A stretch of 64,000 nucleotides of DNA from Patescibacteria group bacterium (GCA_041660305.1 JBAZWO010000002.1:4739-68738), one strand, 5' to 3'; shown: positions 8,550 through 38,217, counted from the stretch's first letter. Numbers and translations: made by a program. Notes: generated from the letters alone by a model not told the origin.

Positions 8550-9884
8550 ATGGAACCAGTTAATAATTTGTTAGAAAAAATATTAGCGCTTTGCAAGCAA
8601 CGTGGTTTTGTGTTCCCTGGTTCGGCCATTTATGGTGGCTTAGCTAATACGTGGGATTACGGTCCGCTGGGCGCACAGTTACGGATGAATATTAAACGAG
8701 CCTGGTGGCAAGCCGTGGTAGAACAACGAGCTGATATGGTAGGGCTAGACGGTGCCATTTTAATGAATCCAAAAGTTTGGGAAGCCTCTGGCCATGTAGC
8801 TACTTTCCATGATCCGTTAGTAGAATGCAAGCAGTGTAAGCAGCGTTTTCGAGCTGATCAAATTGGCAGTAGAGACGTTGTATGCAACGTCTCTACTTGT
8901 CCGAATTGTGGTGGCGAATTAACTGCGCCGCGTAATTTTAATCTGATGTTTCAAACGAGTATTGGACCAGTACAAGAAGAGGGCAGTAAGGTATATTTGC
9001 GGCCAGAAACAGCGCAAGCCATGTTTGTAAATTTTAAAAACGTATTAAATAGTACCCGGGCTCGCTTACCTTTTGGTATTGCACAAATTGGCAAGGCCTT
9101 TCGTAACGAAATTACGCCGGGTAATTTTATTTTTCGTACGCTAGAATTTGAACAAATGGAAATTGAGTATTTTATGGAAGAACCAGACTGGCAAATTCAT
9201 TTTACGGCTTGGCAAGATTGGATGAAAGCTTGGGCTAAACAAATTGGTATTGATACTACTAAATTACACGAACTGGAAGTACCGGCGGAAGAGCGCGCGC
9301 ACTATTCTAAACGCACGGTTGATTTTGAATTTGATTTTCCGTTTGGTCGTAAAGAACTATGGGGGCTAGCTTATCGGACTAATTTTGATTTAACTAATCA
9401 TCAAAAACAGTCTGGTGAAAAACTAGAGTACACTGATCCAGAGGATAATAAAAGAAAATTTATTCCCCATGTGGTAGAGCCTACTTTTGGTGTGGATCGT
9501 ACTTTGTTAGCGCTGTTAATAAGTGCTTATGCAGAAGAAGCGGTAAACGGCGAAACTCGCACGGTATTACGCTTCACTAAAACAATGGCGCCGTATCAAA
9601 TAGCAATATTACCGTTATCCAAAAAAACCGAGTTAACTAATATAGCTAAGCCGTTATTTAACCAATTAGTAAAACGCTGGCGCTGTGATTACGATGAAAC
9701 CCAAAGCATTGGCAAACGGTATCGCCGCCAAGATGAAATTGGCACGCCGTATTGCGTTACCATCGATTTTGATTCGTTAACCGATCAAGCCGTTACTGTG
9801 CGGGAACGTGATTCTATGCAACAGGTGCGCTTGCCACTTAAGCAACTAGAGCCCTATTTTTCTGAACAATATGATCGCGCGTAG
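8550..9884 (+). CDS. glyQS: glycine--tRNA ligase (dimeric class II type)
   Basis: [23 protein letters not shown], class II motifs ([18 protein letters not shown]) and a C-terminal anticodon-binding domain. Confidence 0.95.
8868..8897. repeat. family B palindrome inside glyQS (AGTAGAGACGTTG-TATG-CAACGTCTCTACT)
   Basis: 13-bp perfect arms with a 4-nt centre. It is codon-aligned and encodes [10 protein letters not shown] between the Cys pairs CKQCKQ and CPNCGG. Confidence 0.85.
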
Positions 9885-11142
9885 TAAATTAAAAAATGGC
9901 TTTACAATCATTAAAATTCCGCAACATGATACGGCCGCTGTTACCGTTATGCTGTTGGTGCCAGTTGGTTCACGTTATGAAACCAAAACTAATAATGGCA
10001 TCTCGCATTTTTTAGAGCACTTAATGTTTAAGGGAACCGTTAAACGACCCACTACTTTAGATATTTCTAAAGCGCTAGACGGCGTAGGCGCTGAATATAA
10101 TGCCTATACTTCAAAAGATCACACGTTATATTACATTAAAGCGGCAGCTGAACACTTAGAATTAACGCTCGATTTATTATCTGATATGTTATTTCATTCA
10201 GTATTTGATGCCAAGGAAATTGATAAAGAACGCGGAGTTATTTTGGAAGAAATAAACATGTATGAAGACAATCCGTTAATGCACCTAGATACTTTATTAG
10301 AAATGAGCGTGTTTGGTAAAGATAATCCACTAGGTTACGATATTGCTGGTTTAAAACCAAATATTCGTAATTTACCACGAGCTACTTTCGTGCAATACAA
10401 ACAAACACATTATTCGCCGCGCACCATGTGTTTATGTGTGGCCGGAAAATTAAACCAGGCTACGGATAAATTAATTGCACGATATTTTGGTAGTCAGCCG
10501 GCTACTAATTTTACTAATAAAATAGCTAAACGATTTATTGCCAAACAAACTCAACCACAAATATTTCATCAACAAAAAGATACGCAACAAACTCAATTAG
10601 GCGTTGGTGTAATTGGTTTGCCATTACTACATAAAGATTTACCGGCCTTACAAGTGTTATCGGTTATTTTGGGCGGTAATATGAGTTCGCGTTTATTTGT
10701 GAATATTCGTGAAAAACAAGGGCTGTGTTATTTTATTCGTACGGAAGTTAATCCTTATGTTGATTCTGGGATTTTTTCTATTCAAGCTGGCTTAGATAAA
10801 ACGCGTTTACAAGAAGCGTTAAAATCATTAATGTGCGAATTAAAACAAATTAAAGCAGAGCCTGTTACCAATGAAGAATTAAATAATGCCAAAGAATATA
10901 TTAAAGGCCAAATGGCCTTGCGTTTTGAAGATTCTTCGGCGTTAGCCATGTGGTATGGTCGCCAGGCTGTATTAACGGGTAAATTTGTGGCGCCGCAAGA
11001 ACGAATAAAACAAATCAATCAGGTTACTGTTACTGATATTCAACGAATTGCTAATCAGTTATTTATTACTAAACGATTAAATATTGCTAGTATTGGTTCT
11101 GATCATTCTACCCATCATTTAAAACGTTTATTAGCGTTATAA
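9871..11142 (+). CDS. M16 family zinc peptidase (pitrilysin-like)
   Basis: [11 protein letters not shown] (HxxEH zinc motif) and a two-domain M16 layout; 423 aa. Confidence 0.85.
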
Positions 11143-11152
11143 TTAATTATCT

Positions 11153-12217
11153 ATGTCACTCAATCAAACTCCAGTGCAAGTAAACATTTCGTCATTAACC
11201 ATTATCAAAATTATTTTGGTAGTACTTGGTTTATTTTTTCTTTGGTCGATACAGGAAGTAATTGCTATGGTATTTGTAGCCTGGATTTTAGTGTTTGCCT
11301 TGGAACCATTGGTTAGTAGAATGCAACGTTGGCATATACCACGAGCAGTCAGTATTTTGTTAATTTACGCAGTATTTTTAGGCATTATTACAGCTATGGT
11401 AATATTGCTTATTCCACCACTATCAGCTGAATTAGCTAGTATAACCAATAATTTTCCGCAGTACATGGAATCGCTCAAAGCCAACATTGATAGCATAAAA
11501 CAAGCCAGCGCTGATATTGGTATTTTTGCCACCATTCAAACAGCGGCTGATCAAGCGGTTAATAGTGTTAGTTCCATGACTAACGGTATCTACAATGCTC
11601 TAGCTACTGTAGTTAATTCTATTGTGGCGTTAGTAGGTATTTTGGTAATTACATTTTACATGTTGGTAGAAGAAGAGGGGATTAAGAAATTTCTTCAATC
11701 GATTTTGCCAGTTAATTATCAGCCTTACGTGATTCATAAAATTACTCAAATACAAACTCGGTTAAGTGCCTGGTTGTGGGGTGAATTAGTCTTGATGTTA
11801 TTTGTTGGTACCATGGTTGGCGTGGCTTTGCAGTTGGCAGGCGTGAAATATGCTTTAGTGCTAGGCTTATTAGCCGGGCTAACCGAAGTAATTCCAATTG
11901 TTGGGCCCATTATTGCAGCGGTACCGGCAGTATTTTTTTCTCTGGTTGATGTTACTGCCGCACCGTATAAACCATTACTAATTATTGCTATTTATATTTT
12001 GGTGCAGCAGATAGAAAATCATTTATTAGTACCAAAAGTAATGAATAAAGCCGTGGGTGTGAATCCTATTGTAGTGTTAATTTCATTGCTAATTGCTGCC
12101 AAATTAGGTGGTTTAGTGGGAATTATTTTAGCAGTACCAACCGTTACTATTATTAGTATATTTTTGGAGGATTTTCTTAATCAGCGTAAAATAGAACAGA
12201 ATAAATTGGAGGAATAA
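11153..12217 (+). CDS. AI-2E family transporter (PerM/YhhT-like)
   Basis: 354 aa with about 8 TM helices and a conserved C-terminal core (GLTEVIPIVGPIIAAVPA). Confidence 0.8.
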   Translation: MSLNQTPVQVNISSLTIIKIILVVLGLFFLWSIQEVIAMVFVAWILVFALEPLVSRMQRWHIPRAVSILLIYAVFLGIITAMVILLIPPLSAELASITNNFPQYMESLKANIDSIKQASADIGIFATIQTAADQAVNSVSSMTNGIYNALATVVNSIVALVGILVITFYMLVEEEGIKKFLQSILPVNYQPYVIHKITQIQTRLSAWLWGELVLMLFVGTMVGVALQLAGVKYALVLGLLAGLTEVIPIVGPIIAAVPAVFFSLVDVTAAPYKPLLIIAIYILVQQIENHLLVPKVMNKAVGVNPIVVLISLLIAAKLGGLVGIILAVPTVTIISIFLEDFLNQRKIEQNKLEE

Positions 12218-12239
12218 TCGCTTGTAGCTTTATAATATT

Positions 12240-37348: not shown

Positions 37349-37380
37349 TATAATTATTATAGCATAAATGATATAATAAA

Positions 37381-37500
37381 TACCTACCTCACCCCGCCCT
37401 ACGGGCACCCCTCTCCTCTGAGGAGAGGGGAAATACAATACAATATTTTATAAATTTCTCCTCCTCTCCTTTGAGGAGAGGAGGCTGGGAGGTGAGGTAG
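37381..37500. repeat. family A repeat pair (head-to-head) in the divergent intergenic region
   Basis: CCTACCTCACCCCGCCCTACGGGCACCCCTCTCCTCTGAGGAGAGGGG, and an inverted unit CTCCTCCTCTCCTTTGAGGAGAGGAGGCTGGGAGGTGAGGTAG that ends 7 nt before the truB ATG. Confidence 0.85.
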
Positions 37501-37506
37501 TATTTT

Positions 37507-38217
37507 ATGCCTTTACTTATCAACAAACCCAAGGGTTATACTTCGCATGACATTGTTAATATTGTGCGGAAAAAATTGCACACAAAAAAAGTCGGGCACG
37601 CCGGCACGCTGGATCCGTTAGCGACTGGTTTATTGATTGTATTAGTAGGCAGAGAAGAAACTAAGAAACAGGCGGAATTTATGGCGGGTGATAAAGAATA
37701 TATCGCCGAAATTACTTTAGGCAAAACTAGCGTTACTGATGACGCTGAAGGGCCGTTACAAGCTAGCTCTGATCCCAGTAACATTACTCAAGTCCAAATA
37801 GAGCTTGCTTTAAAAAAATTTATTGGCGCAATTAAACAAACACCACCATTATATTCGGCCATCAAACAACACGGCCAGCCGTTGCATAGGATTATGCGGC
37901 GGCGTGAGAAAAGTAGAGACGCGCTGCAGCGCGTCTCTACTAATGAACACGCAGATAAAATGCATGATGGCACAGATAATACAATTACGGTTCAGCCCAG
38001 AGAGATTAGCATTTTTAATATAGAATTATTAGAAATAACATTACCGGTTGTAAAAATTAAGGTAAATTGTAGTAAAGGTACATATATTAGATCTTTAGCA
38101 CGTGATATTGGCAAAGAATTAGGCGTGGGCGCGTATTTATCTGGTTTAACTCGCACCAAAAGCGGTAATTTTTCCTTGGAGCAAGCGGTGAGTTTGGATG
38201 ATTTTAAAAATAATTAA
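37507..38217 (+). CDS. truB: tRNA pseudouridine(55) synthase
   Basis: GYTSHD..KVGHAGTLDPLATGLL (catalytic Asp), PPLYSAIK and GTYIRSLARDIG. It contains a repeat-derived insertion of about 26 codons. Confidence 0.93.
   Translation: MPLLINKPKGYTSHDIVNIVRKKLHTKKVGHAGTLDPLATGLLIVLVGREETKKQAEFMAGDKEYIAEITLGKTSVTDDAEGPLQASSDPSNITQVQIELALKKFIGAIKQTPPLYSAIKQHGQPLHRIMRRREKSRDALQRVSTNEHADKMHDGTDNTITVQPREISIFNIELLEITLPVVKIKVNCSKGTYIRSLARDIGKELGVGAYLSGLTRTKSGNFSLEQAVSLDDFKNN
37912..37941. repeat. family B palindrome inside truB (identical to 13706-13735)
   Basis: AGTAGAGACGCGCTGCAGCGCGTCTCTACT, codon-aligned, encodes SRDALQRVST. It is followed (about 37942-37989) by sequence resembling a family C arm (..GCATGATGGCACAGATAATACAATTA). 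Confidence 0.88.

What the first reader, a model, noticed from the sequence alone, without database searches (positions are those of the whole stretch)
8868..37941. Family B: ~30-bp GC-rich perfect palindromes (A)GTAGAGACG...CGTCTCTAC(T) inserted in-frame into glyQS, pheT, gyrB and truB
**Five copies share conserved outer arms and variable, still self-complementary centres.**
- 8868-8897 in glyQS: AGTAGAGACGTTG-TATG-CAACGTCTCTACT, encoding [10 protein letters not shown].
- 13706-13735, intergenic after metG: AGTAGAGACGCGCTGCAGCGCGTCTCTACT.
- 29635-29663 in pheT: GTAGAGACGCCCCGGCGGGGCGTCTCTAC, encoding [10 protein letters not shown].
- 32203-32231 in gyrB: GTAGATACGCCCCGCCGGGGCGTATCTAC, encoding [10 protein letters not shown].
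- 37912-37941 in truB: identical to the metG copy, encoding SRDALQRVST.

**Frame behaviour.** Each genic copy adds exactly 10 codons. Two of the three reading frames are used (AGT-AGA-GAC and GTA-GAG-ACG). The unused frame would start with TAG.

**Position in the proteins.** The insertions fall in regions that are variable in these families. Examples are between the two Cys pairs of the GlyRS zinc insertion and in the GyrB linker before [11 protein letters not shown].

**Comparison.** The only well-known analogue I know is the Rickettsia palindromic element (RPE) inserted in-frame in coding genes. These copies are much shorter and are perfect palindromes, which implies recent spread or active maintenance of hairpin or cruciform potential.
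Basis: seen in the sequence. Interest (0 to 1): 0.78.

Follow-up and report, generated by a model that had tools for sequence, protein, structure and literature searches.

The report
Double-foot REP hairpins inside essential genes
The 28-30 bp palindromes are real copies of an already catalogued kind of bacterial repeat ("double-foot" REP sequences tied to REP-associated tyrosine transposases), here found in a tiny gene-packed Patescibacteria genome, where most copies sit in frame inside essential genes and add ten amino acids.

Summary
All five palindromes are at the stated coordinates. I found a sixth with GTGG/CCAC ends at 61656-61683, in an mgsA/rarA-type gene.

The elements are not a new analogue of Rickettsia RPEs. 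They match "double-foot" REP sequences (5' GT[AG]G ... C[TC]AC 3'), described for REP-associated tyrosine transposases (RAYT, also called TnpA_REP) of subclass 2.4 / group 4. A published REP table lists 28-mers with the same GTAGAGACG...CGTCTCTAC arms.

Hits were mainly Cyanobacteria, Bacteroidota and Chloroflexota, with two from Patescibacteria. Of 130 elements, 90 are perfect palindromes, with 89 different centres. In six loci the palindrome lies inside or at the edge of a RAYT-like gene.

The window comes from a Patescibacteria MAG near Kerfeldbacteria and is about 94% coding, so five genic copies out of six is about what gene density alone predicts. Relatives lack exactly ten codons in pheT and truB. 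glyQS and mgsA also carry extra residues; gyrB cannot be judged.

No RAYT gene is in the window, and the rest of the genome could not be searched. In-frame REPs in tRNA synthetase and truB genes have been reported before.

Verdict: a new member of a known kind, of moderate interest.

The parts
8868..8897 (.). Double-foot REP copy (28-nt core 8869-8896 plus flanking A/T) in glyQS (8550-9884). Encodes [10 protein letters not shown], residues 107-116, between the Cys pairs of the zinc knuckle. Has one mismatched pair in the centre.
   Evidence: Most relatives lack it. The closest relative, L263, has a decayed REP at the same nucleotide position.
13706..13735 (.). Double-foot REP copy, intergenic, starting 9 nt after the metG stop codon (metG 12240-13697; cvpA 13758-14255). 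Perfect 30-bp palindrome.
   Evidence: Absent from the orthologous spacer of relative L263. Reproduced in the independent Logan contig L123, which ends exactly at the palindrome.
29635..29663 (.). Double-foot REP copy (29 nt) in pheT (27946-30354). Encodes [10 protein letters not shown], residues 564-573.
   Evidence: Clean 10-residue gap in the orthologue of L127, and an 8-residue gap in the orthologues of L128 and Staphylococcus haemolyticus.
32203..32231 (.). Double-foot REP copy (29 nt) in gyrB (30460-32493). Its arms GTAGATACG/CGTATCTAC carry a compensated change on both sides. Encodes [10 protein letters not shown], residues 582-591, in the variable linker before [11 protein letters not shown].
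37912..37941 (.). Double-foot REP copy, identical to the 13706 copy, in truB (37507-38217). Encodes SRDALQRVST, residues 136-145.
   Evidence: Exactly 10 codons are absent from relative L264. In the AlphaFold model the region has reduced confidence: 10-residue block means of 85, 67 and 56 for residues 131-160, against 93.1 overall.
61656..61683 (.). Lies in an mgsA/rarA-type AAA+ ATPase gene (61110-62342). Encodes VGTRYIAFP, residues 183-191, between the AAA and AAA_assoc_2 domains.
   Evidence: The closest relative, P0362 (67% identical), lacks about 11 residues here.

Best explanation
**What they are (shown).** The palindromes are 'double-foot' REP sequences. These are short, non-autonomous hairpin repeats that carry the guide tetranucleotide GT[AG]G at the foot of the stem and its complement C[TC]AC at the other end.

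**How they spread (inferred).**
- This REP type is the cognate repeat of HUH/Y1 REP-associated tyrosine transposases (RAYT, also called TnpA_REP) of subclass 2.4, which is Bertels group 4.
- From work on other RAYT/IS200 enzymes, the enzyme binds the hairpin extruded in single-stranded DNA, reads the tetranucleotide, then cuts and rejoins single strands.
- Because the foot is present on both strands, either strand can act as substrate.

**Why the copies are in frame (part shown, part inferred).**
- The host is a Patescibacteria genome that is about 94% coding, so nearly every landing site is a gene.
- The copies that persist are those whose net length is 30 nt, that sit in one of the two phases not reading TAG, and that fall in surface loops or linkers of the host protein.
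- There they are presumably translated as decapeptides such as SRDxxxxVST or VETxxxxVST.

**Why the arms stay constant and the centres vary (inferred).**
- The outer 9 nt are held constant by enzyme recognition.
- The centre is free to vary but stays self-complementary. Either the structure is required, or mismatches in the extruded hairpin are corrected against the other arm.
For: **Anatomy**
- The elements have a GT[AG]G ... C[TC]AC foot, 12-13 bp stems and 3-4 nt loops. There are six copies in 64 kb.

**Literature match**
- PMC6006769 defines double-foot REPs of subclass 2.4. It describes them as abundant in Cyanobacteria and Bacteroidetes, scattered elsewhere, and inserted in frame inside the tnpA_REP genes themselves.
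- Its Table S1 lists, for example, GTAGAGACGCACGGCCGTGCGTCTCTAC (subclass 2.4, double foot = T). GTAGAGACG occurs 15 times in that table.
- PMC5581495 states that group 4 RAYTs are common in Cyanobacteria, Chlorobia and Caldilineae and occur in 17 bacterial classes.

**My own scan**
- By my count of the record titles there are about 48 cyanobacterial, about 41 Bacteroidota and about 11 Chloroflexota loci, plus others including two Patescibacteria.
- Of 130 elements, 90 are perfect palindromes with 89 different centres. A random 10-nt centre is self-complementary about 0.1% of the time.

**Link to the transposase**
- Six of those loci encode proteins with the motifs PNH[LF]H, WQ (FQ in L112) and YIxNNP.
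- The palindrome lies inside the ORF in L021, L081 and L112, and at its edge or flanks in L022, L053 and L104.
- Their best family match is NF047646, REP-associated tyrosine transposase, with E = 1e-13 to 1e-16. Pfam Y1_Tnp matches just below its cut-off.

**Insertion status in this genome**
- Relatives lack the segments.
- About 65 kb fetched around gyrB of relatives (78-84% GyrB identity) contain no such palindrome.

**Gene density and precedent**
- Coding density is 0.94, so 5 genic copies of 6 needs no targeting.
- In-frame REPs in tRNA synthetase and truB genes were reported before.
Against: - No RAYT-like gene is in the 64-kb window. A motif scan and the Pfam lists for the called genes found none. 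The rest of the 304-kb contig and the MAG could not be searched, so the cognate enzyme is unproven for this organism.
- The RAYT-like proteins in other phyla score below the curated cut-offs: 50-58 bits against 80 for NF047646, and 17-22 bits against 23 for PF01797.
- How any REP is copied to a new site has not been demonstrated for any RAYT, to my knowledge.
- The exact insertion junctions could not be read, because the nearest relatives are too diverged. It is therefore unclear what the 1-2 nt are that bring the 28-29 nt cores to a net 30.
- The flanks A..T seen here are rare elsewhere (1 of 130; T..A is the commonest).
- A different 30-nt palindrome without a GTAG foot is also inserted in frame in mgsA. 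This shows that not every such insertion in this genome is a GTAG REP.
Confidence: 0.82

Rival explanations
1. This is a new RPE-like family of in-frame palindromic elements, unrelated to REP/RAYT systems and specific to this lineage.
For: The copies are in frame in housekeeping genes, as Rickettsia RPEs are. No transposase gene is in the window.
Against: Palindromes with identical arms occur in many phyla and are already catalogued as REPs of RAYT subclass 2.4. They lie within or beside RAYT-like genes elsewhere. According to PMC3733652, the short intragenic Rickettsia repeats (RPE-4 and RPE-6) belong to the CGTC-tagged REP families, not the GTAG-tagged ones.
Confidence: 0.04
2. These are relic REPs with no resident transposase. 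On this reading the copies arrived or were amplified in the past, or were mobilised in trans by an enzyme from a phage or from the host bacterium of this episymbiont. They are now only tolerated passengers.
For: No RAYT is in the window. The glyQS copy is imperfect, and its counterpart in relative L263 is decayed at both feet. The same palindromes are frequent in IMG/VR viral contigs, which is a possible vehicle.
Against: Two copies are identical 30-mers and four are perfect or near-perfect palindromes, which points to recent activity. Only about 20% of the contig was visible, so absence of the gene is untested. No RAYT-like ORF was found in the 120 viral loci.
Confidence: 0.12
3. The palindromes are maintained for a host function rather than as selfish repeats. 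Candidate functions are an Esp3I-type restriction-modification or methylation target (CGTCTC), an mRNA structure, or a protein-binding site.
For: The arms contain GAGACG/CGTCTC. The hairpins are stable, at -19 to -25 kcal/mol. REPs in other bacteria bind gyrase, IHF and Pol I and stabilise mRNA, as reviewed in PMC6006769.
Against: CGTCTC/GAGACG is not depleted outside the elements: 6 observed against about 4.4 expected. The gyrB and mgsA copies lack the site (GATACG, GGAACG). The positions are not conserved among relatives. No terminator role is possible inside ORFs.
Confidence: 0.03
4. The palindromes are an assembly or sequencing artefact.
For: Palindromes can be created or can break de Bruijn assemblies. 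Logan contig L123 ends exactly at one of them.
Against: The ENA assembly matches the window with at most one mismatch. The Logan contig L123, from another sequencing run, reproduces the 13707-13734 copy exactly. All genic copies keep long ORFs open. The family is present in isolate genomes of many phyla.
Confidence: 0.01

Closest known systems
Double-foot REP sequences of TnpA_REP (RAYT) subclass 2.4, which is Bertels group 4 (Quentin et al. 2018, PMC6006769; Bertels et al. 2017, PMC5581495)
   Same: Both have the 5' GT[AG]G foot with the 3' C[TC]AC complement, a 28-29 nt length and a 12-13 bp stem. The arms are identical to catalogued entries (GTAGAGACG...CGTCTCTAC). Both show in-frame insertion into genes. 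The taxonomic spread also matches: Cyanobacteria, Bacteroidota and Chloroflexota, with scattered other phyla.
   Different: The host is a Patescibacteria (CPR) genome, for which I found no report. Five of six copies are inside genes, and all are single copies rather than doublets. No cognate RAYT has been seen yet. The local flanks A..T extend three copies to 30-bp palindromes.
Intragenic GTAG- and CGTC-tagged REPs (Di Nocera et al. 2013, PMC3733652)
   Same: REPs lie entirely within ORFs and are read in frame. Reported targets include tRNA synthetase genes, truB, and replication and repair genes.
   Different: Those cases are mostly in Proteobacteria and Opitutus, with the tag unpaired at one end only, and are a small minority of the copies. 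Here the foot is paired on both sides and genic copies are the majority.
Rickettsia palindromic elements (RPE)
   Same: Palindromic repeats are inserted in frame in functional genes of a small genome. The Rickettsia truB gene is also a target.
   Different: From my own knowledge, RPE-1 is roughly 100-150 bp. PMC3733652 places the short intragenic RPE-4 and RPE-6 in the CGTC-tagged REP families. There is no sequence relationship, and the host phylum differs.
Small dispersed repeats (SDR) of Nostoc (Elhai et al. 2008; cited from memory and from the reference list of PMC3116915, because the paper itself is not held)
   Same: They are very short (21-27 nt) mobile hairpin repeats in cyanobacteria with compensatory changes. 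Cyanobacteria are one of the main hosts of the present family.
   Different: I could not read the SDR sequences, so identity with this family is untested.

Membership tests
Double-foot REP (RAYT subclass 2.4 type) | GT[AG]G tetranucleotide at the 5' foot of the hairpin | tested here: met
   Five copies start with GTAG and one with GTGG.
Double-foot REP (RAYT subclass 2.4 type) | The reverse complement C[TC]AC at the 3' end (the 'double foot') | tested here: met
   All six copies end with CTAC or CCAC. The definition is in PMC6006769.
Double-foot REP (RAYT subclass 2.4 type) | A fully paired basal stem of 7-20 nt, a loop of 2-5 nt, and a total length of about 21-65 nt | tested here: met
   Stems are 12-13 bp, loops 3-4 nt and total length 28-30 nt. 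Predicted folding energy is -19 to -25 kcal/mol.
Double-foot REP (RAYT subclass 2.4 type) | Sequence agreement with catalogued REPs from REPtrons | tested here: met
   Table S1 of PMC6006769 lists subclass 2.4 entries with identical 9-nt arms and double foot = T.
Double-foot REP (RAYT subclass 2.4 type) | Physical association of the repeat with RAYT genes (REPtron) | tested here: met
   Met in other genomes only. The palindrome is inside or at the edge of RAYT-like ORFs in L021, L022, L053, L081, L104 and L112. These match NF047646 at E = 1e-13 to 1e-16, below the curated cut-off.
Double-foot REP (RAYT subclass 2.4 type) | A cognate RAYT gene in the same genome | not testable with these tools
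   None is in the 64-kb window. The remaining roughly 240 kb of the contig and the rest of the MAG could not be fetched.
Double-foot REP (RAYT subclass 2.4 type) | Many dispersed copies in one genome | tested here: inconclusive
   There are six copies in 64 kb. The genome-wide count is unknown. A metagenome scan with the 28-mer found only other organisms.
Rickettsia palindromic elements (RPE) | Rickettsia-type element: a long palindromic insert (RPE-1) or a short CGTC-tagged repeat (RPE-4/6), with sequence similarity to RPE families | tested here: not met
   These elements are 28-30 nt, GTAG-tagged, and belong to a family spread over many phyla. The RPE tagging is from PMC3733652.
MITE | Terminal inverted repeats around a non-palindromic body of 70-300 bp, with target-site duplication | tested here: not met
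   The whole element is a single 28-30 nt hairpin. No duplication is visible at the pheT or truB junctions.
Restriction-modification-linked palindrome (Esp3I/BsmBI site CGTCTC) | Avoidance or other bias of the site outside the elements | tested here: not met
   Six sites lie outside the elements, against about 4.4 expected. Two copies lack the site altogether.

The most novel reading that the evidence does not exclude
This could be a REP lineage that has adapted to a gene-saturated episymbiont genome. On this reading:
- its unit is fixed at 30 nt with two stop-free phases, so it can multiply inside essential genes;
- it persists without a resident RAYT, being mobilised in trans by a phage-borne or host-bacterium enzyme;
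- occupied sites are kept for long periods while their centres turn over. The relative's glyQS site carries a decayed REP with a different centre at the same nucleotide position.
Probability: 0.1. Interest if true: 0.7.

Novelty: new member of a known kind. Interest (0 to 1): 0.36.

Why it matters
- **Range.** It extends a known repeat / domesticated-transposase system to Patescibacteria. These genomes are about 1 Mb, have almost no intergenic space, and are usually described as poor in mobile DNA.
- **What gene density does to a hairpin repeat.** It shows what happens when such a repeat meets a genome with nowhere neutral to land. The surviving copies are decapeptide insertions in GyrB, two tRNA synthetases, TruB and an MgsA-type ATPase.
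- **Use for annotation and evolution.**
  - Peptides such as SRDxxxxVST, VETxxxxVST and VETxxxxSL mark REP-derived segments in proteins of many phyla.
  - They map loops that tolerate insertions.
  - They may serve as strain-level markers.
- **Limit.** It does not reveal a new mechanism.

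Tried and rejected
1. **Chance.** Rejected by shuffles.
2. **Assembly artefact.** Rejected. The ENA assembly agrees with the window, and one Logan contig from another run reproduces the 13707-13734 copy.
3. **Esp3I-type restriction-modification link.** No depletion of CGTCTC outside the elements.
4. **Literal sequence search of the literature.** Searching for GTAGAGACG/CGTCTCTAC returned only primers and the like.
5. **Elhai 2008 (SDR paper).** It is not held, so the SDR comparison rests on memory.
6. 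**Supplements of Di Nocera 2013.** They do not contain these sequences.
7. **Finding more copies from the same genome.** A metagenome scan with the exact 28-mer returned 12 loci with GC from 34% to 67%. All are from other organisms.
8. **Extending the window.** One end gene was not on record under that start codon. Its record is called from an internal start (P0361). The other end gave only a 9.6-kb contig.
9. **RAYT genes on viral contigs.** None of 120 viral loci that carry the palindrome has a RAYT-like ORF by motif scan.
10. **Testing the gyrB copy as an insertion.** The linker is too variable even against relatives of 84% identity.
11. **Extra partial arms near REPs** (11-mer at 29518, 8-mer at 32242).
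    - At random window positions, matches of at least 8 nt occur 33% of the time and matches of at least 11 nt occur 2.6% of the time.
    - I did not build on them.
12. **More copies of the second mgsA palindrome.** None was found in the window, in 2.2 Mb of fetched loci, or in viral contigs.

Full report
**1. The observation**

- GTAGAGACG with up to one mismatch occurs 16 times, against 4.8 expected. None of 100 dinucleotide-preserving shuffles reaches that number.
- A systematic palindrome scan found a sixth member with GTGG/CCAC ends, GTGGGAACGCGATATATCGCGTTCCCAC, at 61656-61683.
- The generic pattern GTRG-N3-CG-N10-CG-N3-CYAC gives 4 hits against 0.08 expected.
- The window holds nine palindromes with perfect arms of at least 13 bp. 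Each of 30 shuffles holds none.
- The predicted hairpins have 12-13 bp stems and 3-4 nt loops, at -19 to -25 kcal/mol.
- The ENA assembly matches the window with at most one mismatch, and two Logan contigs from other runs are 100% identical to it.
- One Logan contig, L123, contains the 13707-13734 palindrome and stops exactly at its end.

**2. The organism and the host genes**

The window belongs to a Patescibacteria MAG related to Candidatus Kerfeldbacteria. Its GyrB is annotated as such, and the longest contig carrying it is 304,347 nt.

GC content is about 37% and the window is about 94% coding.

| Copy | Host gene | Encoded peptide | Residues |
|---|---|---|---|
| 8868-8897 | glyQS | [10 protein letters not shown] | 107-116 |
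| 13706-13735 | none; starts 9 nt after the metG stop | not translated | - |
| 29635-29663 | pheT | [10 protein letters not shown] | 564-573 |
| 32203-32231 | gyrB | [10 protein letters not shown] | 582-591 |
| 37912-37941 | truB | SRDALQRVST | 136-145 |
| 61656-61683 | mgsA/rarA-type AAA+ ATPase | VGTRYIAFP | 183-191 |

Two codon phases are used.

**3. Are they insertions?**

- **pheT.** The orthologue in relative L127 (GyrB 80% identical) has a clean 10-residue gap at the site. The orthologues of L128 and Staphylococcus haemolyticus are 8 residues shorter there.
- **truB.** The relative L264 shares an older lineage-specific segment (…ADK.HD.TD…) but lacks exactly the ten REP codons.
- **truB structure.** In an AlphaFold model of TruB (mean pLDDT 93.1), the 10-residue blocks covering residues 131-160 have mean pLDDT 85, 67 and 56. 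That fits a peripheral excursion.
- **mgsA.** The closest relative, P0362 (67% identical), lacks about 11 residues at the site.
- **glyQS.** Most relatives have only 4 residues between the RADQ(I/L) motif and the next Cys, where the window has 11.
- **gyrB.** The linker is so variable, even at 84% identity, that nothing can be concluded.
- **metG-cvpA spacer.** The orthologous spacer of L263 has no REP.
- **Relatives in general.** About 65 kb fetched around gyrB of relatives contain no GT[AG]G...C[TC]AC palindrome at all.

So this is a lineage-specific expansion.

**4. What the family is**

*Cross-phylum scan.*
- By my count of the titles there are about 48 cyanobacterial, about 41 Bacteroidota and about 11 Chloroflexota records.
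- The rest are Acidobacteriota, Ignavibacteriota, Rhodothermales, Spirochaetales, Omnitrophota, Desulfuromonadales, Planctomycetaceae and Binatia, plus two Patescibacteria, L085 and L118.
- Of 130 elements, 92 are 28 nt long and 34 are 29 nt long.
- 90 are perfect palindromes, although they have 89 different centres. A random 10-nt centre is self-complementary about once in a thousand. That is very strong covariation for a hairpin.

*Literature.*
- Di Nocera et al. 2013 sort REPs into GTAG- and CGTC-tagged superfamilies. They report REPs lying in frame inside genes, naming tRNA synthetase and truB genes among the targets.
- Quentin et al. 2018 describe 'double foot' REPs for TnpA_REP subclass 2.4, with 5' GT[AG]G and 3' C[TC]AC.
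- They find the subclass abundant in Cyanobacteria and Bacteroidetes and scattered elsewhere. Its REPs are inserted in frame inside the tnpA_REP genes themselves.
- Their Table S1 contains GTAGAGACGCACGGCCGTGCGTCTCTAC (subclass 2.4, double foot = T). That exact 28-mer recurs in six of my loci. GTAGAGACG occurs 15 times in the table.
- Bertels et al. 2017 give the same unusual host range for group 4 RAYTs.

*The link in my own data.*
- Six of the 120 loci encode proteins with PNH[LF]H, WQ (FQ in L112) and YIxNNP motifs.
- The palindrome is inside the ORF in L021, L081 and L112, between the HuH and Tyr motifs as published.
- It is at the ORF edge or flanks in L022, L053 and L104.
- The best family match of these proteins is NF047646, REP-associated tyrosine transposase, at E = 1e-13 to 1e-16. 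The scores of 50-58 bits are below the 80-bit equivalog cut-off. Pfam Y1_Tnp matches just below its threshold.

I therefore file the window's elements as double-foot REPs.

**5. How it most likely works**

*Shown:*
- the anatomy of the elements;
- the family identity;
- the insertion status of the pheT and truB copies, and extra residues in glyQS and mgsA relative to near relatives;
- the association of this repeat with RAYT genes in other genomes;
- the coding density of the window.

*Inferred:*
- A RAYT recognises the hairpin and its GT[AG]G foot in single-stranded DNA, then cuts and rejoins it. This is by analogy with the E. coli TnpA_REP and IS200/IS605 work summarised in PMC6006769.
- Because the window is 94% coding, nearly all landings hit genes. 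Five genic copies of six is what density predicts.
- Selection keeps only copies that add a multiple of three, avoid the TAG phase, and fall in loops or linkers.
- In this genome the three 28-nt copies with GTAG feet all carry flanking A and T, making 30-bp palindromes. The 29-nt cores add one more base. Elsewhere the flanks are mostly T..A, and A..T is seen once in 130.
- This suggests, but does not prove, that variants of 3n length were favoured here.
- The gyrB copy has GATACG/CGTATC, a change present on both arms. That fits the family-wide pattern of compensated centres.

*Missing:*
- No RAYT is in the window. I could not reach the other roughly 240 kb of the contig.
- The metagenome scan with the exact 28-mer found only unrelated organisms, with GC from 34% to 67%.

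**6. Rivals**

- **A new RPE-like family.** Contradicted by the cross-phylum identity and the published catalogue.
- **Relic or trans-mobilised copies without a resident enzyme.** This stays open.
  - The palindromes are common in IMG/VR viral contigs, but none of those 120 loci has a RAYT-like ORF.
  - Two identical 30-mers argue for recent activity.
- **A restriction-modification or other host function.**
  - CGTCTC is not depleted outside the elements: 6 observed against about 4.4 expected.
  - Two copies lack the site.
  - The positions are not conserved among relatives.
- **Artefact.** Excluded.

**7. A detail worth keeping**

In the closest relative found (L263, from the sample of the 84%-identical GyrB), glyQS carries GCAGAGACGGAAAATTTTCCGTCTGTAC.
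- It sits at the same nucleotide position and in the same phase as the window's copy.
- It is a double-foot REP with both feet mutated and a quite different, still perfectly palindromic, centre.
- The mutated right arm (TCT to TGT) now supplies a Cys in the CxxC motif.
- This is either one old insertion whose centre turned over while staying self-complementary, or two hits at the same nucleotide. I cannot tell which.

**8. Novelty and score**

- The kind is known: its structure, its enzyme family, its host range and even its in-frame insertion into truB and tRNA synthetase genes.
- What is new is the host. I found no paper linking REPs and Patescibacteria.
- Also new is the extreme outcome, in which genic decapeptide insertions are the majority of copies.
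- I rate it as a new member of a known kind, with interest about 0.36.

Noticed in passing
window 62235-62264 (in mgsA, 61110-62342): A different perfect 30-nt palindrome, TCCGCCAAAGGCGGA|TCCGCCTTTGGCGGA, made of two 15-nt mini-hairpins and lacking a GTAG foot. It encodes SAKGGSAFGG. This is a clean 10-residue insertion relative to all 17 aligned MgsA homologues, including one 67% identical. No other copy is in the window, the fetched loci or viral contigs.
   Followed up: partly
L263 about 995-1022 (glyQS of the closest relative, Logan SRR22388314): A decayed double-foot REP, GCAGAGACGGAAAATTTTCCGTCTGTAC, sits at the same nucleotide position and phase as the window's glyQS copy, with a different palindromic centre. 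Its mutated arm supplies a Cys codon of the CxxC motif.
   Followed up: partly
window 7364-7388, 7446-7477, 30374-30397, 32514-32538, 35628-35658, 35684-35709, 37408-37430, 37460-37484, 61012-61037, 61058-61082: A second family of polypyrimidine/polypurine hairpins (CCCCTCTCC...GGAGAGGGG and variants). They appear to lie between genes, and may be terminators or another repeat family. Similar hairpins fill the metG-cvpA spacer of relative L263.
   Followed up: no
window 29518-29528 and 32242-32249: Solitary partial REP arms lie near full copies. GTAGAGACGCC lies 117 nt upstream of the pheT REP, in the same phase (VETP). GTAGATAC lies 10 nt downstream of the gyrB REP and matches that copy's unusual arm. 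At random window positions, matches of at least 11 nt occur 2.6% of the time and matches of at least 8 nt occur 33% of the time.
   Followed up: partly
L123 (Logan SRR6484324 contig, equal to window 9728-13734): This independent contig ends exactly at the last base of the 13707-13734 palindrome. That suggests these hairpins break short-read assemblies.
   Followed up: no
viral loci L143-L262; pairs in L147, L148, L150, L165, L173: The same palindrome family is common in IMG/VR viral contigs, with at least 120 loci. In several related contigs two copies lie 1857 nt apart, with a 446-residue ORF between them whose function I did not test. No RAYT-like ORF was seen.
   Followed up: partly
L130-L141: The exact 28-mer GTAGAGACGCGCTGCAGCGCGTCTCTAC occurs in metagenome contigs with GC from 34% to 67%, that is, in unrelated organisms. 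With fixed arms and a palindromic 10-nt centre there are only 1024 possible sequences, so recurrence is expected.
   Followed up: partly
window 37942-37980 (truB residues 146-158): Next to the REP, TruB carries an older lineage-specific segment, NEHADKMHDGTDN. It is shared with relative L264 (NTDNADKIHDYTDK) and absent from other TruB proteins. The same loop has therefore been hit or extended more than once.
   Followed up: no
L091, L086, L114, L072, L118 and others: In other phyla the same REP family is also read through in frame inside long ORFs, giving peptides such as VETQNFASL, SRDAARHVST and RRDVPPERLY. Hosts include a long protein with a repeat-rich C-terminal region, a 629-residue and a 657-residue ORF whose sequences look like glycoside hydrolases, a two-domain ABC-type ATPase linker, and a Cys-rich Gracilibacteria protein. 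The host functions are read by eye from the sequences.
   Followed up: partly
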